From IMG/VR virus record IMGVR_UViG_3300027805_000001: a stretch of DNA of 64,000 nucleotides; one strand, given 5' to 3'. Made by a program: the position numbers and the translations under genes. Positions 1 to 58,924 of the stretch are shown piece after piece (position 1 is the first letter of the stretch; each line of letters begins with the position of its first letter). Below the pieces are notes generated by a model. It was not told where the DNA came from. It did no database searches and saw only the letters and a program-made list of their open reading frames with translations. The DNA is from an uncultured virus (IMG/VR IMGVR_UViG_3300027805_000001). Lineage: Duplodnaviria; Heunggongvirae; Uroviricota; Caudoviricetes.

Positions 1-192
1 GCTGAAGTTACCACCTACATGGGATGGGGCACCTTCAAGGGATGTCAGCTGGTTGTAGTTGCAGAAGAAGCCACCACCTACATGGGATGGTGCTCCTTCA
101 AGGGATGTCAACTGGTTGTCGTTGCAGTCGAAGTCACCGCCAGTGTACTCTATCTTCAGGTCGGCAACTGATTTTTGTCCTTGTAGCTTCAT
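1..192 (-). CDS. Variable LRR-like repeat protein, copy A (runs off window start)
   Basis: Manual translation from ATG at 192: MKLQGQKSVADLKIEYTGGDFDCNDNQLTSLEGAPSHVGGGFFCNYNQLTSLEGAPSHVGGNFS...; same 63-bp module as 38940-39530 and 43636-44478; TAAATA at 217-222 upstream. Confidence 0.9.
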   Translation of the reverse strand, partial: MKLQGQKSVADLKIEYTGGDFDCNDNQLTSLEGAPSHVGGGFFCNYNQLTSLEGAPSHVGGNFS

Positions 193-15171: not shown

Positions 15172-15472
15172 CAGCAAGAGAACCTAGGATGCTCGCACCC
15201 GCCAGTATCTTTGTAGCTAGCATCTCTTCGTCAGTTTGACTATGAGCTTCAAGGCGCGAGCGCGCAAATTTCACTAGCACGGTCATTGGGACATCTGTGA
15301 ATGGATACTCGCAGTAGAACTGTACATCACCCCAGTTTCCAGTGCTGATGAACGACTTGAGACTATCAAGGTGTTCCTTATTGGAAGGATCAAAGTTCTG
15401 CCGATTGACGCTCGCTCGGCGCAGAATGGTAGATTTGTTCAGAAAGTCGCTGGTGTCAACAAAGTCAGGCAT
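15152..15472 (-). CDS. hypothetical protein
   Basis: 106-aa ORF in operon. Confidence 0.7.
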   Translation of the reverse strand: MPDFVDTSDFLNKSTILRRASVNRQNFDPSNKEHLDSLKSFISTGNWGDVQFYCEYPFTDVPMTVLVKFARSRLEAHSQTDEEMLATKILAGASILGSLADEITIS

Positions 15473-35703: not shown

Positions 35704-37230
35704 TCAAACTATGAACGGAACTGGCTCATCACCAAAAGCATCACCCGTTTCACTGGGATCAACATACTCGTTGACTCGCTTGAAGGCTTCATCATTCCAC
35801 TCCGAAATCCTCTTTAGCAACCGAATGATGCCGACCAAAGCCATTACTGTGTCGTCAGTTGCCCCCGCCTTCGCCTCGTAGGTGCCACCTTTAGCAATGA
35901 AGTTCTTTAGCTCGAAAAGCAGTTGCTCGCTGTTGATCTGCAGACCGTTGGTTGTCTTCTCTACCAGCTGCTTGAGCTGCAGACATGACAGGATTTTAGT
36001 CTTACCGGTTGTATAAATTCCAAATTTTCCCGGAACATCGCAGAAAAGCTCAGCATGCTCTGGTTGCTTCTCATCATTCTGGTAAAGGGCAGAGATGGCT
36101 TCACCAATGCCGTTACGTTCAAACGTCCAAATGACCTCTGCTCTTCCTCTGTTGCCCCACTCACTAAGCTTCAGGATGATCCACTTGAGCTTGGCGTATA
36201 GAAGAGGAATGTTAACATCATTGGTTCGGAACTCAGCGACTTGATTCAGCCCTGGAAAGTCAAAGACCTCAATGACAGAAAAGTCTCGACCACTTCCAGT
36301 TGCGGGGTCAAGCGAGATTAGATATGTCTTACCAACTCCCCCAAGTTCCTCGTCGGGAACCCAGAACTTGAAGCCCATGTCCTCGTGCGGCGGGGACTTG
36401 TATCTGAGCTGCTGTAGCTTGAGAGAGTTGATGAGTAGTGCGTCATTTGAAACAAAAACGCAGTCTAGTTCCTGCTTTACCAACAGAGGACCGAGCTTAC
36501 CTAGCATTTCTTGGTAGTATTCTTGACCTCTGTCAGGGTGTTCATACCACATTGCCTGTACCGGTTTGAATGAATTCGTACCAGCCATTGCTCCTCGCCA
36601 AATTGTGGCAAAAAGGTCGGTATCGCCATTTGGCGTAGATGTCAAGACAAATCTGCCGCCGGTTGAGAGCGCGGGCGCAAGTGATGCCCACATGGCATCC
36701 TGAATACGCTTTGATATAAACGCAATCTCATCAACCATTAGAATTGCTGGAGAGCTACCACGACCAGTTCGCTCAGATGTAGCTTCGCACTTAATCTTGG
36801 AGCCATTTTCAAATTCTATTGATGTTCGATTGAAGAACTTACAGCCGGCTTTTATCCAGTTGGGTAGTTCCTCATAGGCGTATTTGACGCGTGACATGAT
36901 TTCAACGGCATGCTCCATGTTCTTTGAAGCAATGATACAAACCTTGTCCTTGTTGAAAAGGGCAAACCATAGAATGTACATCGCAACCACTGTGGTTTTG
37001 CCTAGCTGCCTAGATGCCAGAATAACAACATCCTTATTATTGTGCACCGCATCTACAATTTTCTTTTGATACTCATAAAGAACGAATGGCACATTTCCTT
37101 TCGTTGGATGAACCACCTTTATGTGGTTCTCCATGAAGTGTATTGGATCAGTTAGACATTTCCTGATTTCAAAAATTCTTTCATGGGTGTATTCATCTAA
37201 CGAATTTGGTCTCTTGATGTTAGTTGCCAC
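35704..37230 (-). CDS. terminase large subunit (gp17-like)
   Basis: SRQLGKTT, MVDEIAF, TSTPNG, QELDC, nuclease DPATG...DDTVMAL. Confidence 0.95.
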   Translation of the reverse strand: MATNIKRPNSLDEYTHERIFEIRKCLTDPIHFMENHIKVVHPTKGNVPFVLYEYQKKIVDAVHNNKDVVILASRQLGKTTVVAMYILWFALFNKDKVCIIASKNMEHAVEIMSRVKYAYEELPNWIKAGCKFFNRTSIEFENGSKIKCEATSERTGRGSSPAILMVDEIAFISKRIQDAMWASLAPALSTGGRFVLTSTPNGDTDLFATIWRGAMAGTNSFKPVQAMWYEHPDRGQEYYQEMLGKLGPLLVKQELDCVFVSNDALLINSLKLQQLRYKSPPHEDMGFKFWVPDEELGGVGKTYLISLDPATGSGRDFSVIEVFDFPGLNQVAEFRTNDVNIPLLYAKLKWIILKLSEWGNRGRAEVIWTFERNGIGEAISALYQNDEKQPEHAELFCDVPGKFGIYTTGKTKILSCLQLKQLVEKTTNGLQINSEQLLFELKNFIAKGGTYEAKAGATDDTVMALVGIIRLLKRISEWNDEAFKRVNEYVDPSETGDAFGDEPVPFIV

Positions 37231-37960
37231 GTTTTATTCCTCTTAGACTTAATTTTCCACGGCACCATCCAGGTGGTTGTTCTCCAAGAACACACATTAT
37301 CTGTTCTAATGTTTCTGGATTGAACCACCAAGTTTTACCAGCACTGCCAGCTTTTCCTTTTAGGCGGGGGTCCCCAAGAGTAGAATTAGGTAGAGCAATT
37401 TTGCTGATAACTACTTGTCCATCTTCTGTCACGTAGGTTTTTGAATTTTTGTTGGGAGCTGTTCTACCTTGTGCCTTAAGCTTTATGCGTAGGCGAGTGG
37501 TTTCTGAACGTTTCATTCCGAGATGTTTTGCAGCGGTTTTTGCTATTTTTTCTGGATTTTTGTTGATCTTATTGACGTGTTCCTGAGTTTTCTTTTTTCC
37601 AGAGAGAGATCGTGAAATTTTCGCGCAGTGCTCATTAGTACGAAGTGCACCAATTGCACCTTCACCCCCATCTGTCAAGTTTAACAGAGGTCCTTTTCCT
37701 TGGTCTTTTCTACCTATTTTTGTAATAGTGCTCTTTTCAAGCGAAAATGCAACATCCTCGGATAACCCTTCTGACAGCCTTGTTATGATCGGATCAATTC
37801 CAGCACTTCTCATTTGGCGAAGTCTATATGTTAATGGGTGATGATCAGTTCTAGTAAGGTGATCCTTTTCTCTATTGTTGCACCCTTTACCAACATAAAA
37901 CACCTCATTTCTAGATGGATCAAAATAGGTGTACACATAGAATTTTGCTTCAGTCTTCAT
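37220..37960 (-). CDS. GIY-YIG homing endonuclease
   Basis: FYVY...FYVGKG...R...E...LLNLTDGGEG plus NUMOD-like tail. Confidence 0.88.
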   Translation of the reverse strand: MKTEAKFYVYTYFDPSRNEVFYVGKGCNNREKDHLTRTDHHPLTYRLRQMRSAGIDPIITRLSEGLSEDVAFSLEKSTITKIGRKDQGKGPLLNLTDGGEGAIGALRTNEHCAKISRSLSGKKKTQEHVNKINKNPEKIAKTAAKHLGMKRSETTRLRIKLKAQGRTAPNKNSKTYVTEDGQVVISKIALPNSTLGDPRLKGKAGSAGKTWWFNPETLEQIMCVLGEQPPGWCRGKLSLRGIKRGN

Positions 37961-38544
37961 GCGTGTTCGTCATCAAAAAGAAAGTCTGCAATAAGCTTAA
38001 CTGTGCGTTCATGCAGCAGTACCTCAAAGTGGTTAGCTTTGACCTCGCACTTTTTTCCAAATGGTAAAGCTCTTTGGCTGCTTACCGTAACTATGCTGTC
38101 ATTTGGTTCAGGCGAGGTTGGTAACGAACCACCTGTAGAATAGATACACAGAGTTGGATTTGAAAGCTTGAGCTGACTGATGAGCTCAATCTTTGGCGAA
38201 GTAGGTGTTATGTCGTGAAGCATCTTCGGATAACCAGGTATCCACCTAAGCGTTGTCGCGGCCCGTGAACCACCAAGAGGCGAAGAAATAGTTACAAGCC
38301 CATCAACTCTATCATGGTGCTCGGCTGCCATTAAGACAGAGATAATTCCACCTAGTGAATGACCAATCAGACAAAACCGACCCTTTGGCAGCTGGCGCCT
38401 AACCTCATCCATGCTGTCACGGATAGGCTGGTGGCTGCTGTAGCTGATAGGCACAATCGTGTGAGTTGGTAGCTTAGACTGCAGGTAGTTAAATGAGCGA
38501 TGGCTTGAGTTGAAACCGTGAACGTACGCGATCTGCATCTTCAT
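37957..38544 (-). CDS. alpha/beta hydrolase
   Basis: HGFNSS, GHSLGG nucleophile elbow, NDSIV, NHFEV. Confidence 0.88.
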   Translation of the reverse strand: MKMQIAYVHGFNSSHRSFNYLQSKLPTHTIVPISYSSHQPIRDSMDEVRRQLPKGRFCLIGHSLGGIISVLMAAEHHDRVDGLVTISSPLGGSRAATTLRWIPGYPKMLHDITPTSPKIELISQLKLSNPTLCIYSTGGSLPTSPEPNDSIVTVSSQRALPFGKKCEVKANHFEVLLHERTVKLIADFLFDDEHA

Positions 38545-38580
38545 TTCCTTATTGATGTAGTATTTACAGCCTACAGGCGC

Positions 38581-38943
38581 TTAAAGCTTGACACCTTTAC
38601 CATCTCTGCTGGTAAGTAGCCAGTGGTCGTCCATCTTCTTGATTGTTAGCAGCCTATCGTCCTCTGGAATAATCTCAAACCAATCGTCTGGCGAATCAGT
38701 ATGAACGCGTACTTCAGTTTTTTCTGATGCCAGCTGGATGATCTGAACCTTCTTGATGTTCCATTCCTGGGCAGGAATGGAAACGTTGATTTTCTTACCA
38801 TCAGGTTGCTTGACGACCCTGTTAAGACCAGTCATCAGCACCTTCATTGGCTGCTTTGCCTTGTAGAGCTTTAACAACATGCTGCCAATAAGAGTTTCGC
38901 TCTTAAGTTCTTGTTCTGCTTCAAGTAGTTGGCTGACTTTCAT
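38581..38943 (-). CDS. putative capsid internal protein (MKVSQLLE leader)
   Basis: Shared leader motif; ATGA coupling. Confidence 0.65.
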   Translation of the reverse strand: MKVSQLLEAEQELKSETLIGSMLLKLYKAKQPMKVLMTGLNRVVKQPDGKKINVSIPAQEWNIKKVQIIQLASEKTEVRVHTDSPDDWFEIIPEDDRLLTIKKMDDHWLLTSRDGKGVKL

Positions 38944-39530
38944 CTCGGGTACTCCACATCCGCATCTGAGAGCAACTGCTGCACATCTAAAGCTGCTCTA
39001 ATTGAGCCAGATGGATTCGTCTTAAGGTACTCGTTGATGATCTTGTCTGCGTCTGGGCAAGGTGTACTTACTCCTTTCACTCCCTTGATCAGCAGGATGT
39101 ACAGCAGACCTTCTTTGATTGGGTTGCCGTGACAGTAAAATACACCATTTATCTCCTTGATGATCTTGTGGATGTTCTTCAGGGAGGTCAGCTGGTTGTT
39201 ACTGCAGAAGAAGCCGCCACCTACGTGGGATGGTGCTCCTTCAAGGGATGTTAGCTTGTTGTTATTGCAGTAGAAGTCACCGCCTACATGGGATGGTGCC
39301 CCTTCAAGGGATGTCAGCTTGTTGTGGTTGCAGTAGAAGCCACCACCTACATGGGATGGGGCACCTTCAAGGGATGTCAGCTGGTTGTTATTGCAGTAGA
39401 AGTCACCGCCTACATGGGATGGTGCCCCTTCAAGGGATGTCAGCTTGTTGTGGTTGCAGTAGAAGCCACCACCTGTGTACTCTATGTTTAGATCAGCAAC
39501 TGACTTCTGTGTTATCTCTAGTAGCTTCAT
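38940..39530 (-). CDS. Variable LRR-like repeat protein, copy B (5 modules)
   Basis: 5 x 21-aa GGxFxCxxNxLTSLEGAPSHV plus C-cap nearly identical to copy C. Confidence 0.92.
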   Translation of the reverse strand: MKLLEITQKSVADLNIEYTGGGFYCNHNKLTSLEGAPSHVGGDFYCNNNQLTSLEGAPSHVGGGFYCNHNKLTSLEGAPSHVGGDFYCNNNKLTSLEGAPSHVGGGFFCSNNQLTSLKNIHKIIKEINGVFYCHGNPIKEGLLYILLIKGVKGVSTPCPDADKIINEYLKTNPSGSIRAALDVQQLLSDADVEYPR

Positions 39531-39937
39531 CTTGGATTATGTCCCCAAACCTTAAGAGACAGAAGTTTTCTAGTCGGCTCACCATTCTCATCGTACAAAG
39601 GCCCAGCAGCTCCCTTCATGCGGCTGATGAAGCTCACTTGCTTGCCTGCCCAGCGCCACATCTCAGGTGTCCAATCCTTCACTGGGGTACTTTTCATTTT
39701 TATGATCCATTTTGCCGACTGGCGGCCTGTGCTGATACCAAGCTTTGAGGCTTCAGACTGCTTCATACCAGGATGCTTCTTAGGATCCTTCTTAGCAAGC
39801 TCAAGCTGTCTATCAAGCCAGTTATCCAGGCTCTTCGCTGACATATTGACAAGTGAGCGCCAGCGGGCATACAGCTCCTGACGGCGCTTCTTCTCACCTT
39901 CTGATACTTCTTCGGTTAGCAGCTCATTAACTTTCAT
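39527..39937 (-). CDS. DUF3140-like protein with MKVNELLTE leader
   Basis: LVNMSAKSLDNWL...GRQSA...SLKVWGHNP. Confidence 0.7.
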   Translation of the reverse strand: MKVNELLTEEVSEGEKKRRQELYARWRSLVNMSAKSLDNWLDRQLELAKKDPKKHPGMKQSEASKLGISTGRQSAKWIIKMKSTPVKDWTPEMWRWAGKQVSFISRMKGAAGPLYDENGEPTRKLLSLKVWGHNPR

Positions 39938-39939
39938 GA

Positions 39940-40395
39940 TTATCCCTTTATGTCTGTTATAACTTCATCCACGGAGTGAAAGTGTAGGATTGGCCCAGCT
40001 CTCATTCCGGTGGCCACCGGGAACCAAGCAGCAAGCCACTGTCCTTTTTCCTTTTCTTTAGGGCTGAAGTAGGTGTTTATGATAAATGCCGGCGTTGAGG
40101 TAGTAAGGTAAAGGTTTCCGTTAGTTGAAACTTTTAACTCAGTATTAAGACGAGCGGCCCTCATCTTCTTCATGGCCATTCTAAGCATAAACATCTCGTG
40201 CTCTTTATCTGCATTTTCAGCAAGATACAAAAGCTGCTCGCTGATCTTTTTACCTAACTTTGCGTCCAGAAGCTCGATGACATCTTTATGACTTGCCAGC
40301 CACTCATCAACCTTGACAGTATACCCCTTTTTCAATAACTTCTCAGGCATTGAAGCTAAAAGCGGTTGTTCCTCCAGAAGCTGCTTTACTTTCAT
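39940..40395 (-). CDS. putative capsid internal protein (MKVKQLLEE leader)
   Basis: Shared leader motif. Confidence 0.65.
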   Translation of the reverse strand: MKVKQLLEEQPLLASMPEKLLKKGYTVKVDEWLASHKDVIELLDAKLGKKISEQLLYLAENADKEHEMFMLRMAMKKMRAARLNTELKVSTNGNLYLTTSTPAFIINTYFSPKEKEKGQWLAAWFPVATGMRAGPILHFHSVDEVITDIKG

Positions 40396-40694
40396 TGGGC
40401 TTTCGCAATCTGCGCGGCGTAGAACTTGTGCTTCGACCTGTCAATCTTACCTGTCTTCTGGTCAATCTTTCCACCGTAGTTTTCTGCTTGCCGTTCAATC
40501 CGGCGATGCAGCTCCTTCATCGCCTTCATGATAGTTTCCTTGTCATATGGCTTTGATGGTGTTCCATCCAGCATATCAAAGCTGTCATCAGCTTCAGAGC
40601 TGCGATCTTCATCATGAGCTAAAGGCACCGATGGATGGGAGTTGCCGTTAGCAACTACGTGCTTAGACTTTCCCAAAAGTTCTGAGATTTTCAC
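40392..40694 (-). CDS. hypothetical protein (MKISELL leader)
   Basis: Shared leader motif; GTGA coupling. Confidence 0.6.
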   Translation of the reverse strand: MKISELLGKSKHVVANGNSHPSVPLAHDEDRSSEADDSFDMLDGTPSKPYDKETIMKAMKELHRRIERQAENYGGKIDQKTGKIDRSKHKFYAAQIAKAQ

Positions 40695-41137
40695 GAGAGG
40701 TTCTCCATCTTGTATCGTATCTTTGAGACCATCCCCTGAATTTCTTGATACTTGTTAACTAAGAAGCCATCCTGTGGTATGCGACTTTCTTGGGAAGATA
40801 AGAAGTCATCAAGCTGTTTGATAAATGCCAGCGGATCAGTTTCACTGAAGGAATTAGGCTCGCTTAGTTCTATGTGGGCTTCTGTTCCATATCTGCCCAT
40901 GTACATCTCCATTAGGTCGTCCATCATGTCTGACAGACCATCATAGAGCTCTCCAAGGGCCATATGGAGCGCAAACGACTTTACTTTCCAATGCCACATT
41001 CTTGCGACGTTTTGGGCCCGCATCAGCTGAGACATCAAATTAGCCATAACATCATCAGCTGAGCTTTGTGTCTCTTCGTATCCGTCCATTTCGTAGTCGC
41101 TCATGGTGTAACCATTCATGTTGTACCTACCATTCAT
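40691..41137 (-). CDS. ferritin/Dps-like protein
   Basis: HWKVKSFALHMALGELYDGLSDMMDDLMEMYMG resembles the Dps HW...H...E..D...E pattern. Confidence 0.7.
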   Translation of the reverse strand: MNGRYNMNGYTMSDYEMDGYEETQSSADDVMANLMSQLMRAQNVARMWHWKVKSFALHMALGELYDGLSDMMDDLMEMYMGRYGTEAHIELSEPNSFSETDPLAFIKQLDDFLSSQESRIPQDGFLVNKYQEIQGMVSKIRYKMENLS

Positions 41138-41185
41138 GTTGTTCTCCTTGTTATTGTTGTTATGAGAGGGAATACAGATTTCTAT

Positions 41186-41443
41186 TTACTGCTTCTTCTG
41201 TTCTCTTGCCTTAACCCACAGATCCTTATCTGCTTTTCTTGCTGGGCCACCAACCAGAAATGAGTTTACTCTGCCCATTGCCCACTGGTGCTGAGAAACA
41301 CCTGGCCGGTGTCCAGTTTTCCAAGCCGCCAGACCTCGATTATAGACGGCTCGAAGGGTTCTCATTGGGATACCAGTCTTTTCAGCTTTGTTCTTGAGAG
41401 CTGTATCTACGTTGCTTTCAAATAGAATTTCACTGACCTTCAC
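41186..41443 (-). CDS. DUF5824-like small basic protein with MKVSEILFE leader
   Basis: KTGIP...LRAVYNRGLAAWKTGHRPG...QWAMGRVNSF. Confidence 0.7.
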   Translation of the reverse strand: MKVSEILFESNVDTALKNKAEKTGIPMRTLRAVYNRGLAAWKTGHRPGVSQHQWAMGRVNSFLVGGPARKADKDLWVKAREQKKQ

Positions 41444-42597
41444 TTGCCATACCTCCGCTCAAACTCCTTGGTATACTCTGACTTAGGGAGTGACTTGCCT
41501 TTCTTTTTCAGACGTTCCTTATACTTCTTATCTGCAGTCCAGTCTTCAGGGTAGGCATCCTTGTCTTTATGGCTCATCTTGCTGAAGCGCTTGATCTCAC
41601 GCTTCATTTCAGCCTTCTCTTCGGGGTTGAGACCCTTGATGTAGCTGGGCTTCACCTTATCTTCATTAAGCAGTTCTGCTTGGTCTAAAACTCCTAGCAT
41701 GAATTGCTTCAAGAAACTAGGGGTAAGTGGATTTACCTTACCATCTGCTGCTACAAACTTTGAGCGCTCATCCCAGTTCAAGTAGTCGACCGAGTCACCG
41801 CCCGCCTGCACTAGGAAAGCCCTGCCTTGAGCTGGAAAGTTTCTAAGAACAACAACTACCTTGATGTCAGGTGTTTCTCCGGCGAGCGGTATTCTACCAA
41901 CGTCAAACTTGACTTTTATGGCGGTGTTGCTAATGAACTTGAGGTAATAACCACCTTTGCCAATCATGATGAACTTTGGGAGAGGCTGCTGCTTAAGCAG
42001 CTTTGGAATTGTTACTGCTTCATCCTCGTTGACGACAACAATCTTATCTAGTTCCGATATTTCCTCATGCATTTTTTCAAGAGGTTGCACATCCTTTGGA
42101 AGCTTTACGCCTTTTTTCCAGTTTAAAAACCAAGAAACTGCTTCTCTGCCAAATGAGCCATATTTTCTTCTGTCAAACGGTCCCTCATAATCAGGACTCA
42201 TCTGCTTGAAGAGCTCATAGTACTTGTCCCAAAGCAGACCTCCCCAGTCACTCTCCAAGAAATCATAAGCTTGCTCAAGATTAGCATCGGTGTTTCCGCC
42301 TTTCATAAGTCGGTTCTGTGTTGCAAGCTTTACTATCTTATGGATCATCGCTCGCTCAGCGGCATCATTTTTATACTGCCCCTGGTCACTTTCAAGCAGC
42401 TCGTTGAACTCAGCAAATGTGATGCTCTCCTTGAGCCCCATCATTCGCTTGAAGGTGTTGACGACCTTGCCCCAGTACCAGGAACCTTGTCTCTTGCCCT
42501 TCTTGACGGCGTGCTTAGCATCCTGCCACACCTTCTCAGCGTGTTCTACAGAGGTACCAGTCTTATGAGCAACATTTTGAACGAACTTAGTTGGCAT
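41440..42597 (-). CDS. multidomain putative internal head protein
   Basis: Basic N-terminal domain, internal LKESITFAEFNELLES and LLNE motifs, basic C-terminal domain. Confidence 0.65.
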   Translation of the reverse strand: MPTKFVQNVAHKTGTSVEHAEKVWQDAKHAVKKGKRQGSWYWGKVVNTFKRMMGLKESITFAEFNELLESDQGQYKNDAAERAMIHKIVKLATQNRLMKGGNTDANLEQAYDFLESDWGGLLWDKYYELFKQMSPDYEGPFDRRKYGSFGREAVSWFLNWKKGVKLPKDVQPLEKMHEEISELDKIVVVNEDEAVTIPKLLKQQPLPKFIMIGKGGYYLKFISNTAIKVKFDVGRIPLAGETPDIKVVVVLRNFPAQGRAFLVQAGGDSVDYLNWDERSKFVAADGKVNPLTPSFLKQFMLGVLDQAELLNEDKVKPSYIKGLNPEEKAEMKREIKRFSKMSHKDKDAYPEDWTADKKYKERLKKKGKSLPKSEYTKEFERRYGK

Positions 42598-43069
42598 GAT
42601 TAGATGTCTTTGAAGGTAGAACATTCATTTCTATTAGCCTGTTGATAACCCACCATCTTAGCTTCAGCGGGTTATACAGGTGCTCATTACTGACAAAAAG
42701 TTCCTTGCCCTCGCCCTTATAGTCAGGAAAAAACTGAGAGTTGGGTTCAAATCTCCAACCACATTGCATTGTCTTCGGGATATCGAACAGCAATGCATCG
42801 GCAATCGGCGTGTCGTTAAAAAACTGTCTAACTTGATAGTACGACCAGCCATTAACCGTTTCACCTAGAACCATGAAAAAGCTCTTGCTTAGAAAAATAC
42901 GATTTGGCAAATCCTCTTTAGAGTAAGTTTTCTTTTGCTCAGTGCCCTCACTCACAGAAGGTAATTCAGTAGTTTCTCCCGTTCCCCAACCCCAAACAAA
43001 GAACCAGGGATCTGGCTGCTTCTTAGGTTTCTTGGGTTTCCATTGCTTGAGCAGTTCGACAGCCTTCAT
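42587..43069 (-). CDS. hypothetical protein (MKAVELL leader)
   Basis: ORF in late cassette array. Confidence 0.6.
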   Translation of the reverse strand: MKAVELLKQWKPKKPKKQPDPWFFVWGWGTGETTELPSVSEGTEQKKTYSKEDLPNRIFLSKSFFMVLGETVNGWSYYQVRQFFNDTPIADALLFDIPKTMQCGWRFEPNSQFFPDYKGEGKELFVSNEHLYNPLKLRWWVINRLIEMNVLPSKTSNHAN

Positions 43070-43070
43070 G

Positions 43071-43349
43071 TCAATCCTTCTTGCGCGCCGCAAGCTTGCG
43101 CTTAACTGCTTCCCTAACACGTTCCATCTTTTTAGCGTAAGATGGATTTTTATTTCTATTGAACACTATCTGCTGATTAAGAGAACCAGTTATCTTCTGC
43201 ATGTTACCGCCACGAGTTCGAATAAGCCAGTCAGCTAGCGCGTTTATCCCAAGCTCTTTGAACTTACCATTTGCATCAGGCGCGTCACTGTCCTTCCAAG
43301 TTGGCGCCCCGGCTGGACGCTTTTCAAGTAATAGTTCACTTACCTTCAT
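43071..43349 (-). CDS. putative capsid internal protein (MKVSELLLE leader)
   Basis: Leader motif then basic domain SDAPDANGKF. Confidence 0.7.
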   Translation of the reverse strand: MKVSELLLEKRPAGAPTWKDSDAPDANGKFKELGINALADWLIRTRGGNMQKITGSLNQQIVFNRNKNPSYAKKMERVREAVKRKLAARKKD

Positions 43350-43599
43350 TCTTTTTCCCCTCATACTTTCCCACAAGCTTCATAACAAAGTGCCCAAAGC
43401 CCGTGACAGCGTGCAGGTTATGAGCAATTACTTTTCCAGGATTCGCATCAACCATGTGATTATGATGTCTTATTGCTTCTTCTTTTGTTGAATAGAATCT
43501 CTTGGACTGCCAGAAATCTGCGCGCTCAGAACCGTCCTTCTTCAAAGCGTGAAGCCAGATATTTGTTTCTTTTTTACTCCAAACTTCAAACAGACGCAA
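43336..43599 (-). CDS. hypothetical protein (MRLFE leader)
   Basis: TTG start with GGAG RBS; TAAATA at 43624. Confidence 0.6.
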   Translation of the reverse strand: MRLFEVWSKKETNIWLHALKKDGSERADFWQSKRFYSTKEEAIRHHNHMVDANPGKVIAHNLHAVTGFGHFVMKLVGKYEGKKNEGK

Positions 43600-43635
43600 T
43601 TTAATTTCTCCAGGTTATCAGTGTATTTACGCTAT

Positions 43636-44478
43636 TCATCTTGGATACTCCACGTCTGCGTCTGAGAGCAACTGCTGCACATCTAAAGCTGCTCTAATTG
43701 AGCCAGATGGATTCGTCTTAAGGTACTCGTTGATGATCTTGTCTGCGTCTGGGCAAGGTGTACTTACTCCTTTCACTCCCTTGATCAGCAGGATGTACAG
43801 CAGACCTTCTTTGATTGGGTTGCCGTAACAGTAAAATTTACCATTTATCTCCTTGATGATCTTGTGGATGTTCTTGAGGGAGGTCAGCTGGTTGTGGTTG
43901 CAGTAGAAGTGACCACCTACATGGGATGGTGCTCCTTCAAGGGAGGTCAGCTGGTTGTAGCTGCAGCTGAAGCTACCGCCTACATGGGATGGTGCTCCTT
44001 CAAGGGATGTCAACTGGTTGTCGCTGCAGAAGAAGCTACCACCTACATGGGATGGGGTACCTTCGAGGGATGTCAGCTTGTTGTCGTAGCAGGAAAAGTT
44101 ACCACCTACATGGGATGGTGCTCCTTCAAGGGATGTCAGCTGGTTGTCGTCGCAGTAGAAGTGACCGCCTACATGGGATGGGGCACCTTCAAGTGATGTC
44201 AGCTGGTTGCTGCTGCAGTCGAAGTCACCGCCTACATGGGATGGTGCACCTTTAAGAGATGTCAGCTGGTTGCTGTTGCAGAAGAAGTGAGCACCTACAT
44301 GGGATGGCGCTCCCTCAAGGGATGTCAGCTTGTTGTCGTAGCAGGCAAAGTCACCACCTACATGGGATGGTGCTCCTTTAAGGGATGTCAACTGGTTGTT
44401 GCTGCAGTCGAAGTCACCGCCTGTGTACTTTATCTTCAAGTCAGCAACTGATCTCTGTGTTATCTCTAGCAGCTTCAC
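43636..44478 (-). CDS. Variable LRR-like repeat protein, copy C (9 modules)
   Basis: 9 x 21-aa modules; MKLLEI leader; C-cap shared with copy B. Confidence 0.92.
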   Translation of the reverse strand: MKLLEITQRSVADLKIKYTGGDFDCSNNQLTSLKGAPSHVGGDFACYDNKLTSLEGAPSHVGAHFFCNSNQLTSLKGAPSHVGGDFDCSSNQLTSLEGAPSHVGGHFYCDDNQLTSLEGAPSHVGGNFSCYDNKLTSLEGTPSHVGGSFFCSDNQLTSLEGAPSHVGGSFSCSYNQLTSLEGAPSHVGGHFYCNHNQLTSLKNIHKIIKEINGKFYCYGNPIKEGLLYILLIKGVKGVSTPCPDADKIINEYLKTNPSGSIRAALDVQQLLSDADVEYPR

Positions 44479-44927
44479 TTGATTTCCTTGGTGTCAGCAT
44501 CGACCGAAATGATCTTCATGATGTCGTCAAGGCTTGCTACTACCGCGCCATTTTGATTTTTTGCGGCGTACGGAATGAACGTGTTGGCTTTCTTTCTGTC
44601 GGCCTTCACGCGCGCGCGCATGCCAGCAGCATTTAGGGCGATGTTTAGATAGTTTGCCGCAACCTCAGCATTTCTGGCTGCATATCTAGGTTCAACTATC
44701 TCCGCGTACTGCATCTGCTGTTGAAAAGTTTCGATGGCGCTGTTGTACACCGTGTCTATCTTGTTGTCTATATCGACATCTTCTTGATCTTTTTCTGGAG
44801 ATCCTGCAGGATCCTGCATAGCAGAAAGTTCACCTTCAGTTACCTGCTGATACTCTATCATCTCACCAGCTGGCTGCGCAGTTTCAAAAAGTTCATCAAG
44901 AGGATTAGTTAGCTTTTTAGTCATCAT
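44475..44927 (-). CDS. putative terminase small subunit (gp16-like)
   Basis: Helical, EPRYAARNAEVAANYL pattern; position between gp4 and terminase region. Confidence 0.55.
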   Translation of the reverse strand: MMTKKLTNPLDELFETAQPAGEMIEYQQVTEGELSAMQDPAGSPEKDQEDVDIDNKIDTVYNSAIETFQQQMQYAEIVEPRYAARNAEVAANYLNIALNAAGMRARVKADRKKANTFIPYAAKNQNGAVVASLDDIMKIISVDADTKEIK

Positions 44928-45382
44928 ACTGCCTTTCCTACTTCTGGTGTTCTTGTTTTCTTCATACCCGCGAACATCGTACGCTCTGTCACTACCCTAA
45001 ACTTAGCCCCTTGGCTCTCTGCCCATGCTGCAGCTGCCTTCCACTTTGCCTCGTTTACAATTAGCGCTTGCTTATCTCTATCCGACATTTTTGGTGTCGC
45101 CACGGTCTGTGAATACGGCTTAACCTCAACTATTTCCTTACGTATAGTTCCATCCTTATGCTGGTACATGATAATGATGTCTGGGAAATAGCGGTGCTGT
45201 CGCATGTCAAGTGGGCTGATGTAGGGAATGGCTATCTCCTCTGATCCCCACCTAAGAACAGCCGGTGTCTGATCCAGCCACTTAAAGAACTGCAGTTCCC
45301 AAGATGATCGCCACATTATGTTGTTTGGATTTCCAACGTACTTCTGTGGGTTCTTAGGAATAAATCGACCGTATGCCGCCAT
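44924..45382 (-). CDS. head completion nuclease (gp4-like)
   Basis: PKNPQKYVG...WRSSWE...WGSEE...YFPD...EVKP...NEAKWKAA. Confidence 0.9.
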   Translation of the reverse strand: MAAYGRFIPKNPQKYVGNPNNIMWRSSWELQFFKWLDQTPAVLRWGSEEIAIPYISPLDMRQHRYFPDIIIMYQHKDGTIRKEIVEVKPYSQTVATPKMSDRDKQALIVNEAKWKAAAAWAESQGAKFRVVTERTMFAGMKKTRTPEVGKAV

Positions 45383-46794
45383 TATTCGCCCTCATCTCCG
45401 CTTGGCAGAGTGCTGTTGTAGAATGGTTGAGAAACTACCCTAGAACGAAGAGTATCTGCACCTACGGTAGATTTATCAGAAAAGATAGAACGTGATATTC
45501 TGGCACCGGCTTGTGATGCCCCAGATGAAAGAGTGCTGATGAGGCCTGTAGTTTGATCGCGCACAGCTGAGCTCACTATGCCACCAACAGCACCAGTTAC
45601 ATTGCCTAGAGCGTCTGTCAGGCCACCAGAAAAAGCTCTTCCAATTCTGCTGTTAGCAAATCTGCCATCTCCCACGATTCCTTTTACGGCCTTGTCAACT
45701 AGGTCCTTTGTTACCTTAGTTGTAATCTGCCCAGCCGCATTGGCGATGATGTTGATGTATGGATTAGTTTTACCCTGTGTTGAACTAGCCTGTGCAGGTG
45801 GTATATCGGTGTTTGTCCCACGAAGAATATCAGCAGTTATACCAGATTGTCCTGTTCCATTTTCACCGGTTTTTGATGCCACAACAACTGGATACTCAGG
45901 GCCAAGACCATCAGCCTGGCTCTGAATCCCAGAGTTCTTAGTCATCTCTAACCAATCGTAGTCAAACTGCATCGTCAAAAGATTAGCGTCTGATACCTCA
46001 TGGTTTAGATCATCAAGGTCAAATGATATAAGTCTGGGGTTGACAAAGTCATAGTAGTTAGAGCTTATTGCTCTTTGCGCTTCTTCCCCTCTTAATGCTG
46101 GCTGAATAAAGATCTGCTTTACCCTAATGAGCGAAATGGCATTTCCAGAGTATGTGTCAACTACACCGCGCTGCGCTATGTCACCTGTTGAAAAGCTGCC
46201 TAAGTCCGAAAAGACCATTCCACTTCCTGTTTCAAACTTCCTACCATTGGGAAGTGCATTGTACTGATTGTCCCTCTTCACCGAATCCCTAACGATCGGA
46301 GAGTAGATCATCATCAGCGTTCTGAAGAAATCGAAAACATTATTGCCGACGTCATCCATGAACGTCACGGACAGTTCTCTGTGTCTGATTTTCTTCAGGA
46401 CCTTTGTTCTGAAGTTGTAGTGGTTGATGTCGTCCTCATACTCAAAGTCAACCTTGGGACGATCAATCATCTTTATCATGAAGGTGAAGTTGTTCCTTGC
46501 CAAATCTGGAAACACCTGTATGATCTCAGGTGTGAAGAAAAACTGCACCTTAAAGAGAAACTTAAGCTTAGGTCTAAATTCAGTTGCCCCAGCTAGGGCT
46601 GCAGCATAAGAGGTTGCGTCCCAGACATTTGATCGTGTTTGTAGCTCAGGTGGTAGTGCACTGCCCGTTCCTGGGCGGCGCAATCCAAGCTTTCCTCGGA
46701 CAAAATCTTCCACAGCATTGCCGAATGCCGCCGTTGCTTGTCGCTCCAGCTGCACACCGGCAGATTTAACTATATCACCTACATCTATTGGCAT
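45382..46794 (-). CDS. tail tube-like baseplate/tube initiator protein
   Basis: Tube fold features (DRPKVDF...YN...VTFMDD...LTMQFDYD) with low-complexity extension. Confidence 0.65.
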   Translation of the reverse strand: MPIDVGDIVKSAGVQLERQATAAFGNAVEDFVRGKLGLRRPGTGSALPPELQTRSNVWDATSYAAALAGATEFRPKLKFLFKVQFFFTPEIIQVFPDLARNNFTFMIKMIDRPKVDFEYEDDINHYNFRTKVLKKIRHRELSVTFMDDVGNNVFDFFRTLMMIYSPIVRDSVKRDNQYNALPNGRKFETGSGMVFSDLGSFSTGDIAQRGVVDTYSGNAISLIRVKQIFIQPALRGEEAQRAISSNYYDFVNPRLISFDLDDLNHEVSDANLLTMQFDYDWLEMTKNSGIQSQADGLGPEYPVVVASKTGENGTGQSGITADILRGTNTDIPPAQASSTQGKTNPYINIIANAAGQITTKVTKDLVDKAVKGIVGDGRFANSRIGRAFSGGLTDALGNVTGAVGGIVSSAVRDQTTGLISTLSSGASQAGARISRSIFSDKSTVGADTLRSRVVSQPFYNSTLPSGDEGE

Positions 46795-46835
46795 AGATAC
46801 TCCATTTAGTAGAAGTATTTATGCTAATGCTGTTA

Positions 46836-48326: not shown

Positions 48327-48400
48327 AGTGTATTTATCATCCCTCAAGACAAAAATTTGGACAACACGTAGGTTGTCCAAATTCATAAAAACACAAGTTT

Positions 48401-48997
48401 TTAGGCTGCTACATTGCCACCGAGCGCGGTTCCGTATGATAGGCCACTTTCGACATGGCGAGCATGATCGTAGCGAATGTTCATCGTGATAGTTGCCGCC
48501 TCAGATGCTGAATAGTCACGGTCTCCGAAATCTGCCGAGGTAATCATCGCGCCTTCCAGTACCCAAGTCTGAACAACGCCTTCATCACCATCCAGCTGGT
48601 CGATCTTAGCGCCAAACTTGTAGTCGGCTCCAGTTGGGGCTGTGTTCAACCAGCGGCCATCAAGGTCCACGCCGATAAGGCGCTGCTGGGTTTCAAGCTG
48701 AGCCTTGATAACCGTGGCGGCAAGACCTGTGATGTCATCTTCAACTGTGACGCTGATTGGTTCCCAGGTGTGCTTTCCGGCTACATACGCAACTGAGTTG
48801 TAGCGGTGCAGGGTTACTTCTTCAAATGACAGATTTGGCAGGGTGATGTTTGTGACTTGCCAAGAAAGGTTCTGTGACTTAGTTCCAGCAATAGCTTGAC
48901 CCATGTTAAGGAAGGTGATGCGGAACTTGTTTTTCAGCCTAGGATGAAGAATACCTTGACCTACACCTGGGATGCCGAAGTTAGATAGTGTTGCCAT
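48401..48997 (-). CDS. tail tube protein (gp19-like)
   Basis: LPNLSFEEV...YVAGKHTWEPISVTVEDD...MNIRYD; near sheath; TAAATA at 49037. Confidence 0.88.
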   Translation of the reverse strand: MATLSNFGIPGVGQGILHPRLKNKFRITFLNMGQAIAGTKSQNLSWQVTNITLPNLSFEEVTLHRYNSVAYVAGKHTWEPISVTVEDDITGLAATVIKAQLETQQRLIGVDLDGRWLNTAPTGADYKFGAKIDQLDGDEGVVQTWVLEGAMITSADFGDRDYSASEAATITMNIRYDHARHVESGLSYGTALGGNVAA

Positions 48998-49107
48998 TTT
49001 ATACCTCCTGTCAAACTGTTTGGAGCTGTAACCTAGTATTTAGTGCTTGTGGCGTTTTAGCGGCGGTTTTAGAATAAATAGGATAAGAAATAACTTATTC
49101 AAATGAA

Positions 49108-51530: not shown

Positions 51531-51578
51531 GGATTATTACTTTGCGCGCTTGCTATTTATCGCATAAGCGACAAGAAG

Positions 51579-57673: not shown

Positions 57674-58095
57674 TTTTCTGACAACTTGACTGAGATAACC
57701 AACTGGCGAGTTTCTTTTCCATATGTCCAAGAACGCTCTTTTGCTACAACTTCATCTATCTTATATCCGGCTTCAGCAAATCTTTCTGTGAAGATGCTTC
57801 TAAACAGACTATCTACACGCTTCATGTTTAGCTTGAACCAGTCCAGTCCAAGACCAAGCTGCTTTTGCTTGTCTGACGGCGTAACGAAAAGAGCAGTGGT
57901 TCCCGACGATAGGTTTATGGAAATCTCAGGCATAGTAGTGCTAACACTTGATGGCACAACCCTTAGACTACGCGCAAGTTCTTCTTTGCCATCTTTGAGC
58001 ACATGTCCAAGTTTTCTTCGAGTTTCAATAACGTCCTTAGTAGTTACCTTTCTAACAGCACCTTCCTCTATGAACTGTTTGAACGTTTGTCTCAT
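57670..58095 (-). CDS. putative internal protein (MRQTFKQFIEE leader)
   Basis: Leader motif; ATGA coupling. Confidence 0.65.
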   Translation of the reverse strand: MRQTFKQFIEEGAVRKVTTKDVIETRRKLGHVLKDGKEELARSLRVVPSSVSTTMPEISINLSSGTTALFVTPSDKQKQLGLGLDWFKLNMKRVDSLFRSIFTERFAEAGYKIDEVVAKERSWTYGKETRQLVISVKLSEK

Positions 58096-58571
58096 TTGAT
58101 ACCGTACCTTTCTTTGTCCCACTTTAACCAGTCAGGCGGATACTTAGTCCTGAAGCTAAGCTGAATACGCAATGGAAGGTCAAACCCTGGAACATGGTGC
58201 TGTGTAGGATCAAGCAGCTTAACGTCTGAAACATCAACATCAACAAAGTGCTTACTTAGTTCAGCTCTAAGAAGCTTTGGTAACATACTACTAATCAAGT
58301 CAGCATTTAGCGATTTCTTACGAAGTAGCACCTGCATCAGACATCTTTCTGTAGAATAAGGACGAACTGAACGACTAGTGTAAATCCACGGAAGTCGATG
58401 GTCAGACTGTACCTTGAAGTTGGCTACTGGTATCTTGAAGATACGAGACATATTGGGAATGATGGTGTTGTATAGAGCCGCAAGTCCCCTATCACGCGAA
58501 GTTGGATAGTTACCAAAAACATAGGTGTGGCCTTTGAAGCTACCACTTTCAAAAAGCTCAGTTACTTTCAT
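58092..58571 (-). CDS. putative internal protein (MKVTELFE leader)
   Basis: Leader motif; ATGA coupling. Confidence 0.65.
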   Translation of the reverse strand: MKVTELFESGSFKGHTYVFGNYPTSRDRGLAALYNTIIPNMSRIFKIPVANFKVQSDHRLPWIYTSRSVRPYSTERCLMQVLLRKKSLNADLISSMLPKLLRAELSKHFVDVDVSDVKLLDPTQHHVPGFDLPLRIQLSFRTKYPPDWLKWDKERYGIK

Positions 58572-58924
58572 TTTTCTTCAAGGTTAAAGTTGATTCGAAC
58601 GGTGCCCTGGTTTTTATCAACCCAGCTTGAACGGAGCTCAAGCTTCTTGAAGCGCTCCTTGAGGTTGGCAGTCAGCAGCTTGGTGAGCATTGACATGAAG
58701 AACTCCTCGTTGCCCTTGACCTTCTTAGGGATCTTGATTGTCCAGTGCTGCACGAACTTGTCGATCTGGGGCAGGAACTGCTTCACCGAGATGCTACGCT
58801 CCGAGATCTTGAACTTTTCGGCAACATCGCTCTTGACGTTGCTGGCGAAGCTCTTGCTCGAAGCCAAACTTGGGTAGTCTGCCCAGTACTCACGTTCCTC
58901 TGATAGAAGTTCAGTTACCTTCAT
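58568..58924 (-). CDS. putative internal protein (MKVTELLSE leader)
   Basis: Leader motif; ATGA coupling. Confidence 0.65.
   Translation of the reverse strand: MKVTELLSEEREYWADYPSLASSKSFASNVKSDVAEKFKISERSISVKQFLPQIDKFVQHWTIKIPKKVKGNEEFFMSMLTKLLTANLKERFKKLELRSSWVDKNQGTVRINFNLEEK

What the first reader, a model, noticed from the sequence alone, without database searches (positions are those of the whole stretch)
38940..44478. Phage-encoded variable LRR repertoire: constant scaffold, hypervariable binding face, variable module number
Seen: three paralogues (1-192 partial, 38940-39530 with 5 modules, 43636-44478 with 9) consist of an N-cap, n x 63-bp modules GG-a-F-b-C-c-d-N-(Q/K)-LTSLEGAPSHV, and (where visible) a ~250-bp near-identical C-cap. 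The scaffold is almost invariant, while a/b/c/d vary (copy C: DDSN, DAYD, HFNS, DDSS, HYDD, NSYD, SFSD, SSSY, HYNH; copy B: GYNH, DYNN, GYNH, DYNN, GFSN; copy A: DDND, GFNY). Copy B contains a 126-bp two-module duplication, and modules 2 and 6 of copy C share the TTT-xCC-TGC-TAC-GAC-AAC-AAG block, consistent with shuffling. Established: in LxxLxLxxNxL repeats these positions line the concave ligand-binding sheet, and lamprey VLRs build binders from capped variable LRR cassettes. Inference: this is a recombinationally diversified, antibody-like binder family. Copies B and C carry the MKLLE leader, so they may be packaged and injected to neutralise host defence proteins.
Basis: partly seen in the sequence, partly recalled or inferred. 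Interest (0 to 1): 0.9.

Follow-up and report, generated by a model that had tools for sequence, protein, structure and literature searches.

The report
Variable LRR binder family, jumbo phage
A large freshwater phage carries several copies of a small repeat protein whose predicted binding surface differs from copy to copy while its scaffold stays constant, which suggests a set of custom binders aimed at its host.

Summary
The window holds three paralogous genes: 1-192 (partial), 38940-39530 and 43636-44478, all on the minus strand. Each encodes a stand-alone capped leucine-rich-repeat (LRR) protein built from 63-bp modules. LRR positions 3, 5, 7 and 8 carry nearly all the variation, with dN/dS about 2.5-2.9 against about 0.1 in the scaffold. 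They are rich in D, N, S, Y and H. In the models they lie on and next to the repeat's beta-strand.

Module number differs between copies. Identical modules recur at different positions in paralogues of related contigs, which fits in-register recombination.

The phage is a T4-related jumbo phage. The genes are accessory inserts in a late, co-directional block, among unrelated small basic proteins that share a T4-capsid-targeting-like N-terminus.

The repeat is of the IpaH/SspH/InlJ type. Thousands of relatives exist, mostly in large phages and often as tandem multigene arrays.

There is no sign of programmed diversification: no reverse transcriptase, and the invariant AAC codons rule out a diversity-generating retroelement (DGR). 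Packaging and injection are plausible but unproven: the leader matches only partly, the proteins are acidic, and copy A lacks the motif.

This scan found similar arrays before on other DNA. My literature searches found no description.

The parts
43636..44478 (-). LRR gene copy C, 280 aa, GTG start overlapping the stop of the upstream gene by 4 nt
   Evidence: Pfam LRR_4 E 6.7e-9, 36.2 bits against a cut-off of 27
44464..44478 (-). Copy C leader, residues 1-5 (V/M-KLLE)
   Evidence: In the model of copy C, residues 1-19 have pLDDT under 50. In copy B, residues 1-5 do.
44422..44463 (-). Copy C N-cap (ITQRSVADLKIKYT)
   Evidence: S10, V11, D13, L14, I16 and Y18 are at least 90% conserved in 21 homologues
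43855..44421 (-). Copy C array, nine 63-bp modules GG-a-F-b-C-c-d-N-Q/K-LTSLEGAPSHV
43636..43854 (-). Copy C C-cap: one degenerate last LRR (FYCYGNPI) plus helices, then the stop codon
   Evidence: Folded with pLDDT 96-99 in the equivalent part of copy B. GNPI aligns with the GNPL cap of SspH2.
38940..39530 (-). LRR gene copy B, 196 aa, ATG start overlapping the upstream stop; its own stop overlaps the start of the next gene
   Evidence: Pfam LRR_4 E 5.2e-8; AlphaFold pLDDT 95.1, pTM 0.90
39159..39473 (-). Copy B array, five modules; modules 1-2 and 3-4 form a 126-bp tandem duplication
1..192 (-). LRR gene copy A, 5' part only (N-terminus MKLQGQKSVADL, two full modules and the start of a third); it continues beyond the window edge
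38581..38943 (-). Leader-bearing small basic ORF (MKVSQLLEAE, pI 8.8), directly downstream of copy B
39527..40694 (-). Three leader-bearing small basic ORFs (MKVNELLTEE, MKVKQLLEE, MKISELLGKS), upstream of copy B
41186..41443 (-). Leader-bearing ORF (MKVSEILFES, DUF5824, pI 10.6)
42587..43599 (-). Three small basic ORFs (MKAVELLKQW, MKVSELLLEK, MRLFEVWSKK) directly downstream of copy C
44475..45382 (-). Conserved 150-aa gene and a gp4-like head-closure gene directly upstream of copy C. They anchor the locus in the late structural block.
58092..58924 (-). Second small cluster of leader-bearing basic ORFs (MKVTELFES, MKVTELLSEE)

Best explanation
These genes form a germline multigene family of small, stand-alone, capped LRR binding proteins. 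They belong to a freshwater jumbo phage with a T4-type core.

Architecture. Each protein has a short N-cap, 5-9 repeats of 21 residues, and an 80-residue C-cap. The repeats are of the IpaH/SspH/InlJ type, with a Phe/Cys/Asn ladder in the core.

Specificity. It lies in four exposed residues per repeat on and next to the beta-strand (LRR positions 3, 5, 7 and 8).

Diversification (inferred). These four codons change under diversifying selection, mostly by substitutions in their first two bases. The near-identical 63-bp modules also recombine in register, within and between paralogues. That duplicates, deletes and transplants modules.

Genomic setting. The genes are accessory cargo, inserted in a hyperplastic stretch of the late structural operon.

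Function (inferred). The proteins most likely bind variable host proteins inside the infected cell, for counter-defence or host takeover. Loading into the capsid through the N-terminal leader is a plausible delivery route, but it has not been demonstrated.
For: Fold and family:
- Pfam LRR_4 is above its cut-off.
- phmmer against PDB gives SspH2 E 1.9e-23, InlJ 1.8e-15, and also SspH1 and IpaH7.8.
- AlphaFold on copy B with a 21-sequence alignment gives pLDDT 95.1 and pTM 0.90.
- Foldseek's top rows are IpaH and SspH1 LRR domains, GPIb-alpha and lamprey VLRs, at probability 0.99-1.00 but weak E-values.

Position of the variable residues:
- DSSP strands fall on F-b-C-c in the model of C and on F-b in the model of B.
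- The SspH2 alignment puts F, C and N on LRR positions 4, 6 and 9. So a, b, c and d are positions 3, 5, 7 and 8.

Selection:
- Nei-Gojobori dN/dS is 2.92 at the four variable codons against 0.09 in the scaffold (14 modules). With 45 modules it is 2.45 against 0.11.
- Per-site difference is 0.538 at variable codon bases 1-2, 0.184 at scaffold third bases and 0.092 over the whole scaffold.
- Of 11 module pairs with identical 51-nt scaffolds, 5 differ at 3-5 of the 8 variable bases.
- Residues at the variable sites of the window: D15 N11 S10 Y9 H4 F3 G3 A1, of 56.
- Positions 3, 5, 7 and 8 are also among the most variable in four other phage LRR sets.
- In Chlorobiales bacterial homologues the pattern is reversed.

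Recombination:
- Module counts run from 4 to 9 in the genes seen complete.
- GYNH-DYNN, GFNY, NSYD, DSYH-DFSL and DFSL-AYSS recur at different positions in different genes.
- 6 module pairs are fully identical, 5 of them between different genes or contigs.

Accessory status:
- The closest relatives of the flanking gene (L074 83% identity, L075 77%) have no LRR gene at that site.

Late operon:
- The genes are co-directional with the flanking genes, and their start and stop codons overlap the neighbours'. The block runs from the tail-tube and gp4-like genes to the terminase.
Against: - No binding partner is known, and nothing here tests binding.
- dN/dS among repeats is not a standard design. 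The pairs are not independent, and recombination confounds it.
- I had no model coordinates. 'Concave face' rests on DSSP, on the alignment to SspH2, and on recalled LRR geometry.
- Module order and number come from short-read assemblies of repeats. Related contigs break inside these genes. Laying Logan contigs gave only short fragments.
- Out-of-register sharing of modules can also arise from common descent plus module loss or gain.
Confidence: 0.6

Rival explanations
1. The MKLLE leader is a capsid-targeting sequence, so the LRR proteins are loaded into the prohead and injected with the DNA. They then block host defence proteins before any phage gene is expressed.
For: - T4 IPIII and IPII start MKTYQEFIAE.
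- gp21 cuts after L/I-x-E, and 10 residues are enough for targeting (passages of PMC9026906).
- T-even internal proteins are diverse anti-defence proteins that share only the CTS (passages of PMC3012670).
- Ten ORFs of the window start with a similar N-terminus: eight with MK(V/I)xE/QL/I-L/F, one with MKAVELL, one with MRLFEVW. They lie in two clusters, have pI 8.8-10.6, and show no similarity beyond the leader.
- Relatives carry MKTF(K/R)QF(L/I)xE and MKVxELFE ORFs next to the same flanking gene.
- A sister LRR subfamily starts MKLKELFEATGKSVADL.
- M1, K2 and L3 are at least 90% conserved, yet residues 1-5 are disordered in the model.
- 36 of 49 phage LRR ORFs with a complete 5' end have a leader-like start, against 19 of 328 control ORFs.
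- A gp21-type protease (PF03420, E 7.4e-27) lies on the sister contig that holds two LRR genes.
Against: - MKLLEITQ keeps only M-K-h-x-E-I. The L/I-x-E site at residues 6-8 of the neighbours is I-T-Q here, which leaves only L-L-E at residues 3-5.
- Copy A starts MKLQGQ.
- The LRR proteins have pI 5.9-6.2, unlike the basic neighbours.
- 13 of 49 LRR ORFs do not match the leader pattern, and in 4 of 10 contig groups no ORF matches it.
- No virion proteome is available.
- The T4 late promoter motif is absent from the window.
- Paralogues in the count are not independent.
Confidence: 0.35
2. The proteins are made in the infected cell and act there or at the envelope, in host takeover, superinfection exclusion or lysis timing. 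They are never packaged, and the shared N-terminus is only an expression or folding feature.
For: - The proteins are acidic and have no signal peptide.
- The leader match is only partial.
- The LRR gene of Vibrio phage VB_VaC_SRILMA sits beside a DnaB-like helicase gene and has no MK leader.
Against: - The disordered N-terminal residues are conserved across subfamilies.
- The genes lie among leader-bearing ORFs in a structural operon.
Confidence: 0.3
3. They are virion-surface or fibre-associated adhesins. The variable face binds host envelope structures or environmental surfaces.
For: - In L002 two LRR genes directly follow a gp5-like baseplate hub gene.
- Other phages are reported to carry LRR domains in tail modules or fibre-cloud proteins (passages of PMC10945359, and of bioRxiv 10.64898/2026.04.21.720040).
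Against: - The whole protein folds as one compact capped LRR, with no separate attachment domain.
- There is no similarity to fibre or decoration proteins in PHROGs; the only matches are two families of unknown function.
Confidence: 0.12
4. The phage copies mimic or replace a host LRR protein. They were acquired from a bacterium such as a green sulfur bacterium and keep its conserved ligand.
For: The same module type was found in 32 bacterial MAG loci, 19 of them Chlorobiales, at 44-57% identity over most of the query residues. One lies between chromosomal genes, phoU and a phosphoesterase.
Against: - The bacterial gene has one copy at most of these loci (two on one contig). It has 12-14 modules in a conserved order and no leader. 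Its concave positions are D/N/S/G and vary less than its convex ones.
- The phage N-cap and C-cap patterns were found in 0 of the bacterial genomes scanned.
Confidence: 0.1
5. Programmed hypermutation, by a diversity-generating retroelement (DGR) or something similar, writes the NNC codons.
For: 54 of 56 variable codons are NNC, while genome-wide NNC/(NNC+NNT) is 0.25-0.68.
Against: - The invariant Asn codon AAC is unchanged in 14 of 14 modules, and the many other scaffold adenines are constant.
- No reverse transcriptase was found among 77 window proteins.
- Most scaffold two-fold sites are equally fixed: TGC 14/14, CAT 13/14, TTC 12/14.
- Other phage LRR families use NNT at these sites.
Confidence: 0.02

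Closest known systems
LRR domains of the IpaH/SspH (and YopM-like) bacterial effectors, e.g. SspH2 (PDB 3g06), SspH1 (4nkg), IpaH7.8
   Same: - Best sequence match among solved structures (SspH2 E 1.9e-23).
- Short repeats with xNQLTSL, and a GNP(L/I) C-terminal cap.
- Capped solenoid of similar size.
- Several of the matching PDB entries are complexes of the LRR domain with a host target (4nkg, 8gtk, 7wjq; titles). That the concave face binds the substrate is recalled, not tested here.
   Different: - No NEL E3-ligase domain and no secretion signal.
- 21 rather than 20 residues per repeat. EGAPSHVGG replaces PxLPxxLxx, and the core has a Phe/Cys ladder.
- Phage-encoded, multi-copy, and hypervariable on the concave face.
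Listeria internalin J (PDB 3bz5), the 21-residue 'cysteine ladder' LRR
   Same: 21-residue repeat with a conserved Cys in the core. phmmer E 1.8e-15. Appears in the Foldseek list.
   Different: InlJ is a large cell-wall-anchored surface protein of a bacterium. The phage protein is a small cytoplasmic-type protein with its own caps.
Lamprey and hagfish variable lymphocyte receptors (VLRs) and the repebodies derived from them
   Same: Capped LRR of similar size, a variable number of modules, and variation concentrated on the concave strand positions. VLR structures are among the Foldseek rows (3e6j, 5uf1, 5wk4).
   Different: VLR genes are assembled somatically from flanking cassettes (recalled), whereas nothing here points to programmed assembly. 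The caps are not the Cys-rich LRRNT/LRRCT: Pfam LRRNT is below its cut-off. This is an analogy, not membership.
T4 internal proteins IPI*, IPII, IPIII and Alt, with their capsid targeting sequence (CTS)
   Same: Diverse accessory proteins of a T4-type phage with a short conserved N-terminal leader. The neighbours are small and basic like the IPs. A gp21-type protease is present in the lineage.
   Different: The leader of the LRR genes matches only partly. The LRR proteins are acidic. Packaging is untested. The T4 IP genes are not LRR proteins.
Tandem LRR gene arrays in other large phage contigs, and the uncharacterised Chlorobiales LRR protein
   Same: The same module type and a variable number of modules per gene. 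Examples (LRR ORFs with at least 3 motif matches):
- L007: 11 ORFs.
- L008: 12 ORFs.
- L015: 9 ORFs (one has no leader in view).
- L013: 6 ORFs.
   Different: The N- and C-terminal domains differ between families. The bacterial version is mostly single-copy and conserved on its concave face.

Membership tests
Leucine-rich repeat (LRR) proteins | Repeats with the LxxLxLxxNxL core | tested here: met
   The module reads G-G-a-F-b-C-c-d-N-Q/K-L. F, C and N align to LRR positions 4, 6 and 9 of SspH2. Pfam LRR_4 scores 36.2 and 33.3 bits against a cut-off of 27.
Leucine-rich repeat (LRR) proteins | Curved solenoid with one short beta-strand per repeat | tested here: met
   AlphaFold pLDDT 95.1 for copy B. 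There is one strand or bridge per repeat, at F-b(-C-c). All top Foldseek rows are LRR domains.
IpaH/SspH NEL effectors | C-terminal NEL E3 ubiquitin-ligase domain | tested here: not met
   The proteins end about 80 residues after the last repeat. There is no Pfam hit beyond the LRR, and the SspH2 match covers only its LRR part, residues 52-304.
Variable lymphocyte receptors | Cys-rich LRRNT and LRRCT caps | tested here: not met
   Pfam LRRNT scores 18.5 bits against a cut-off of 25.8, and the hit lies inside the repeats. The caps are a short helix and a helical bundle.
Variable lymphocyte receptors | Somatic assembly of an incomplete germline gene from flanking cassettes | not testable with these tools
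   All copies seen are complete ORFs. Population data were only short Logan contigs.
T4-type internal (capsid-targeted) proteins | N-terminal leader of about 10 residues ending in an L/I-x-E cleavage site | tested here: inconclusive
   B and C carry L-L-E at residues 3-5 but I-T-Q at 6-8. Copy A carries neither. The neighbours and a sister LRR subfamily carry L-F-E or L-L-E at 6-8.
T4-type internal (capsid-targeted) proteins | gp21-type prohead protease in the phage | tested here: met
   PF03420 at E 7.4e-27 and 89.5 bits, on the sister contig G002 that holds L002. It is not in the window itself, and the window's own assembly is not held.
T4-type internal (capsid-targeted) proteins | Presence of the processed protein in virions and its injection | not testable with these tools
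   No isolate or virion proteome exists for this lineage.
Diversity-generating retroelement (DGR) targets | Reverse transcriptase plus a template repeat, with variation only at template adenines | tested here: not met
   No reverse transcriptase was found in 77 window proteins. Scaffold adenines, including AAC of Asn9, are invariant. Only 64 kb of the genome was seen.

The most novel reading that the evidence does not exclude
Large T4-related phages keep a germline repertoire of LRR 'antibodies'. Cassette-like 63-bp modules recombine among paralogues, and selection keeps renewing four contact residues per module. The finished binders are tagged with a capsid-targeting leader, loaded into the head, and injected with the DNA. 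There they neutralise whichever host immune proteins a given strain carries. In effect this would be a viral counterpart of receptor-repertoire immunity.
Probability: 0.25. Interest if true: 0.85.

Novelty: new variant of a known kind. Interest (0 to 1): 0.68.

Why it matters
Known phage counter-defence proteins are mostly one-off inhibitors. A modular binder scaffold with a rapidly changing contact surface would be different. It is multi-copy, and it recurs in many large phages: more than 7,700 database relatives and tandem arrays of up to a dozen genes. That would be a general way for phages to track variable host proteins.

It would also offer a natural, cysteine-ladder LRR scaffold for binder engineering.

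If the leader does target the capsid, this would extend the T4 internal-protein idea to jumbo phages and to a designable cargo class.

The contrast with the conserved Chlorobiales homologue gives a ready control for selection analyses.

Tried and rejected
- Megablast of 38000-46000 against isolated phages: no match.
- The window's own assembly is not held. The nearest record, G001, has no LRR gene. So paralogues could not be counted genome-wide.
- T4 late promoter motif: 0 matches in the window, with 0.87 expected by chance.
- Sequencing runs: only Logan contigs were available, the best holding 0.30 of the sampled words. Laying four runs gave fragments of about 80-280 bp, many from paralogues. 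This says nothing either way on within-population variation.
- A degenerate leader pattern in Ralstonia phage RsoM2USA gave 2 matches, too few to use.
- tblastn of neighbour 39940-40395 gave no match. tblastn of neighbour 41186-41443 gave 18 phage records with no virion annotation that helps.
- The DGR idea was rejected.
- The NNC bias looked special at first. It is explained by shared ancestry of the modules and by the residue set: most scaffold two-fold sites are just as fixed, and other families use NNT.
- Literature: six full-text searches on phage LRR proteins found no description of such a phage LRR repertoire. A seventh search served the T4 capsid-targeting background. Matsushima et al. 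2021 (Arch Virol 166:43) on LRRs in dsDNA viruses is cited in PMC10945359 but is not held, so I did not see it and it may overlap.

Full report
**What is there**

The window holds three minus-strand genes built from 63-bp tandem modules.
- Copy A is 1-192; its 3' part lies beyond the window edge.
- Copy B is 38940-39530 (196 aa).
- Copy C is 43636-44478 (280 aa, GTG start).

Tandem Repeats Finder reports period 63 at all three places, and period 126 in B as well.

Several other details check out.
- The last 255 nt of B and C are 246/255 identical.
- B's modules 1 and 3 are 63/63 identical, and modules 2 and 4 are 58/63 identical.
- B and C start M/V-KLLEITQ, whereas A starts MKLQGQ.

In the 14 full modules of the window, entropy is 1.7-2.2 bits at positions 3, 5, 7 and 8, and at most 0.94 bits elsewhere.

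**What kind of protein**

Pfam LRR_4 is above its cut-off for B and C. Against PDB sequences the best matches are the LRR domains of SspH2 (E 1.9e-23), InlJ (1.8e-15), SspH1 and IpaH7.8. That alignment places F, C and N on LRR positions 4, 6 and 9.

AlphaFold gave two models.
- Copy C without an alignment reached pLDDT 74-92 through the solenoid.
- Copy B with 21 homologues reached pLDDT 95.1 and pTM 0.90. Residues 1-5 are disordered, there is a short N-cap helix, and the C-cap is helical and integrated with the solenoid.

DSSP strands fall on F-b-C-c or F-b. Positions 3, 5, 7 and 8 are therefore the exposed strand and post-strand residues that form the concave face in canonical LRRs. The geometry itself is recalled. 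I had no coordinates.

Foldseek rows are IpaH and SspH1 LRRs, GPIb-alpha, VLRs and repebodies, at probability 0.99-1.00 but weak E-values.

**How the variation is distributed**

- Nei-Gojobori dN/dS over all module pairs is 2.92 at the variable codons against 0.09 in the scaffold (window, 14 modules). With the close relatives L001, L002, L003 and L005 (45 modules) it is 2.45 against 0.11.
- Per-site difference is 0.538 at bases 1-2 of the variable codons, 0.099 at their third base, 0.184 at scaffold third bases, and 0.092 over the whole scaffold.
- Of 11 module pairs whose 51 scaffold bases are identical, 5 differ at 3-5 of the 8 variable bases.
- The residues used are D15 N11 S10 Y9 H4 F3 G3 A1.

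The striking NNC bias is 54 of 56 variable codons, against about 50% genome-wide. It is not a DGR signature, for three reasons.
- The invariant Asn codon AAC and the other scaffold adenines never vary.
- Most scaffold two-fold sites are equally fixed.
- Other phage LRR families use NNT at these positions.

No reverse transcriptase was found among the 77 window proteins scanned.

The same four positions are among the most variable in four other phage LRR sets. In the Chlorobiales bacterial homologues the pattern is reversed: the concave positions are D/N/S/G and less variable than the convex ones.

These statistics treat non-independent, recombining repeats as samples. They are descriptive, not formal tests.

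**Recombination**

The genes of this family that were seen complete carry 4, 5, 6, 7 or 9 modules. Blocks such as GYNH-DYNN occur twice in window copy B and at modules 2-3 of an L002 gene. GFNY(-NS..) is module 2 of copy A and module 5 of another L002 gene. NSYD, DSYH-DFSL and DFSL-AYSS also recur out of register. Six module pairs are identical over all 63 nt; five of these are between different genes or contigs, and one is within copy B.

This fits in-register unequal recombination or gene conversion, which a UvsX-encoding phage should do readily. Descent with module gain and loss, or assembly chimeras, are alternative explanations.

Related contigs break inside these genes. The array of C is reproduced exactly in a second contig.

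**Context**

The window belongs to a T4-related phage. It encodes terminase, a gp4-like head-closure protein, tail tube and sheath, ribonucleotide reductase, UvsX, gp32 and ligase. The closest isolates by sheath protein are jumbo phages:
- Ralstonia phage RsoM2USA, 52% identity;
- Stenotrophomonas phages CM1 and RAS14;
- Xanthomonas phages XacN1 and Xoo-sp13;
- Pseudomonas phage PA5oct.

B and C sit in one co-directional block with overlapping start and stop codons, between the tail genes and the terminase.

The genes are accessory. The closest relatives of the flanking 150-aa gene (83% and 77% identity) lack an LRR gene at that site. More distant relatives carry a different LRR subfamily there.

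Around them lie ten small ORFs with a similar N-terminus. Eight start MK(V/I)xE/QL/I-L/F; the other two start MKAVELL and MRLFEVW. Their pI is 8.8-10.6, and they are otherwise unrelated to each other. Relatives have many more of these beside the same gene, including MKTF(K/R)QF(L/I)xE. That closely resembles the T4 IPIII/IPII leader fetched from AF158101.

Passages of PMC9026906 state that gp21 cuts after L/I-x-E, and that the first 10 residues of IPIII suffice for capsid targeting. Passages of PMC3012670 describe the T-even internal proteins as diverse anti-defence proteins that share only the CTS. A gp21-type protease lies on the sister contig that holds two LRR genes.

**Does the LRR leader target the capsid?**

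For:
- M1, K2 and L3 are at least 90% conserved across three subfamilies, although residues 1-5 are disordered.
- A sister subfamily has the full MKLKELFEA form.
- 36 of 49 phage LRR ORFs with an intact 5' end have a leader-like start, against 19 of 328 control ORFs. The paralogues are not independent.

Against:
- The window's version has I-T-Q where the neighbours have L-F/L-E.
- Copy A lacks the motif altogether.
- The LRR proteins are mildly acidic.
- In 4 of 10 contig groups no LRR ORF matches the leader pattern.

I put packaging at about one in three.

**Spread**

- More than 7,776 database proteins match at E 1e-5 or better.
- The nearest ESM Atlas clusters are about 100% viral.
- Other large phage contigs carry tandem arrays of LRR ORFs with 4-13 motif matches each: 11 such ORFs in L007, 12 in L008, 9 in L015 and 6 in L013.
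- The N-cap and C-cap patterns of this family were not found in 185,579 bacterial and archaeal genomes.
- The module type does occur in 32 MAG loci, 19 of them Chlorobiales. One of these lies between ordinary chromosomal genes.

**Comparison and novelty**

The repeat belongs to the known bacterial short-LRR class (IpaH/SspH/InlJ), but it lacks their other domains. It works like a VLR or repebody scaffold, but it fails the VLR membership features that could be tested.

Six searches of the held literature on phage LRR proteins found no description of such a phage repertoire. One possibly relevant survey (Matsushima et al. 2021) could not be read.

Two earlier notes of this scan describe similar arrays on other DNA. 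I reached the same reading from my own tests.

**Verdict**

This is a real and widespread feature that I could not find described. It is a new variant of a known kind. Its binding targets and delivery route remain open.

Noticed in passing
window 38581-43599 and 58092-58924: Ten small ORFs with a similar N-terminus: eight start MK(V/I)xE/QL/I-L/F, the other two MKAVELL and MRLFEVW. pI is 8.8-10.6 and there is no mutual similarity beyond the leader. They look like a hyperplastic locus of T4-style internal-protein candidates in a jumbo phage. Relatives hold more, including MKTF(K/R)QF(L/I)xE.
   Followed up: partly
L115-L133, L137 (Chlorobiales MAG contigs): Green sulfur bacteria carry a conserved LRR gene of about 350 aa with the same 21-residue module. 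It has 12-14 modules in a fixed order, one copy at most loci, and lies between phoU and a phosphoesterase in L124. Its concave face is conserved. It may be the source of the module, or a hint at the phage's host.
   Followed up: partly
window 45382-53186, 37220-37960, 61500-62270: Three HNH homing-endonuclease genes (46836-48386, 49108-50682, 51579-53186) and two homing-endonuclease genes of PHROG family 314 crowd the tail and neck module. Two tail-tube-like genes (45382-46794 and 48401-48997) flank the first of the HNH genes.
   Followed up: no
window 8862-9434 and 14617-15177: Two short ORFs match separate parts of bacterial DNA polymerase III alpha (finger domain; NTPase domain). The polymerase gene may be split or interrupted.
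   Followed up: no
window 15487-16371: A dCMP/cytidine deaminase domain occupies residues 15-133, followed by about 160 residues with no family match. Weak APOBEC-like hits are all below their cut-offs.
   Followed up: no
window 37957-38544: An alpha/beta-hydrolase (GHSLGG motif, Pfam Abhydrolase_1 E 1.2e-10) lies between the leader-ORF cluster and a homing endonuclease next to the terminase.
   Followed up: no
L001, L003, L004, L005, L006 (IMG/VR contigs): Contigs of this phage lineage end inside LRR genes. The repeats therefore break short-read assemblies, and copy numbers are probably underestimated.
   Followed up: partly
L072 5971-6606 (Vibrio phage VB_VaC_SRILMA): A cultured 196-kb Vibrio phage has an 8-module LRR gene of this type (59% identity to copy C) next to a DnaB-like helicase gene. 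It has no MK leader and no C-cap. It could serve as an isolate for experiments.
   Followed up: partly
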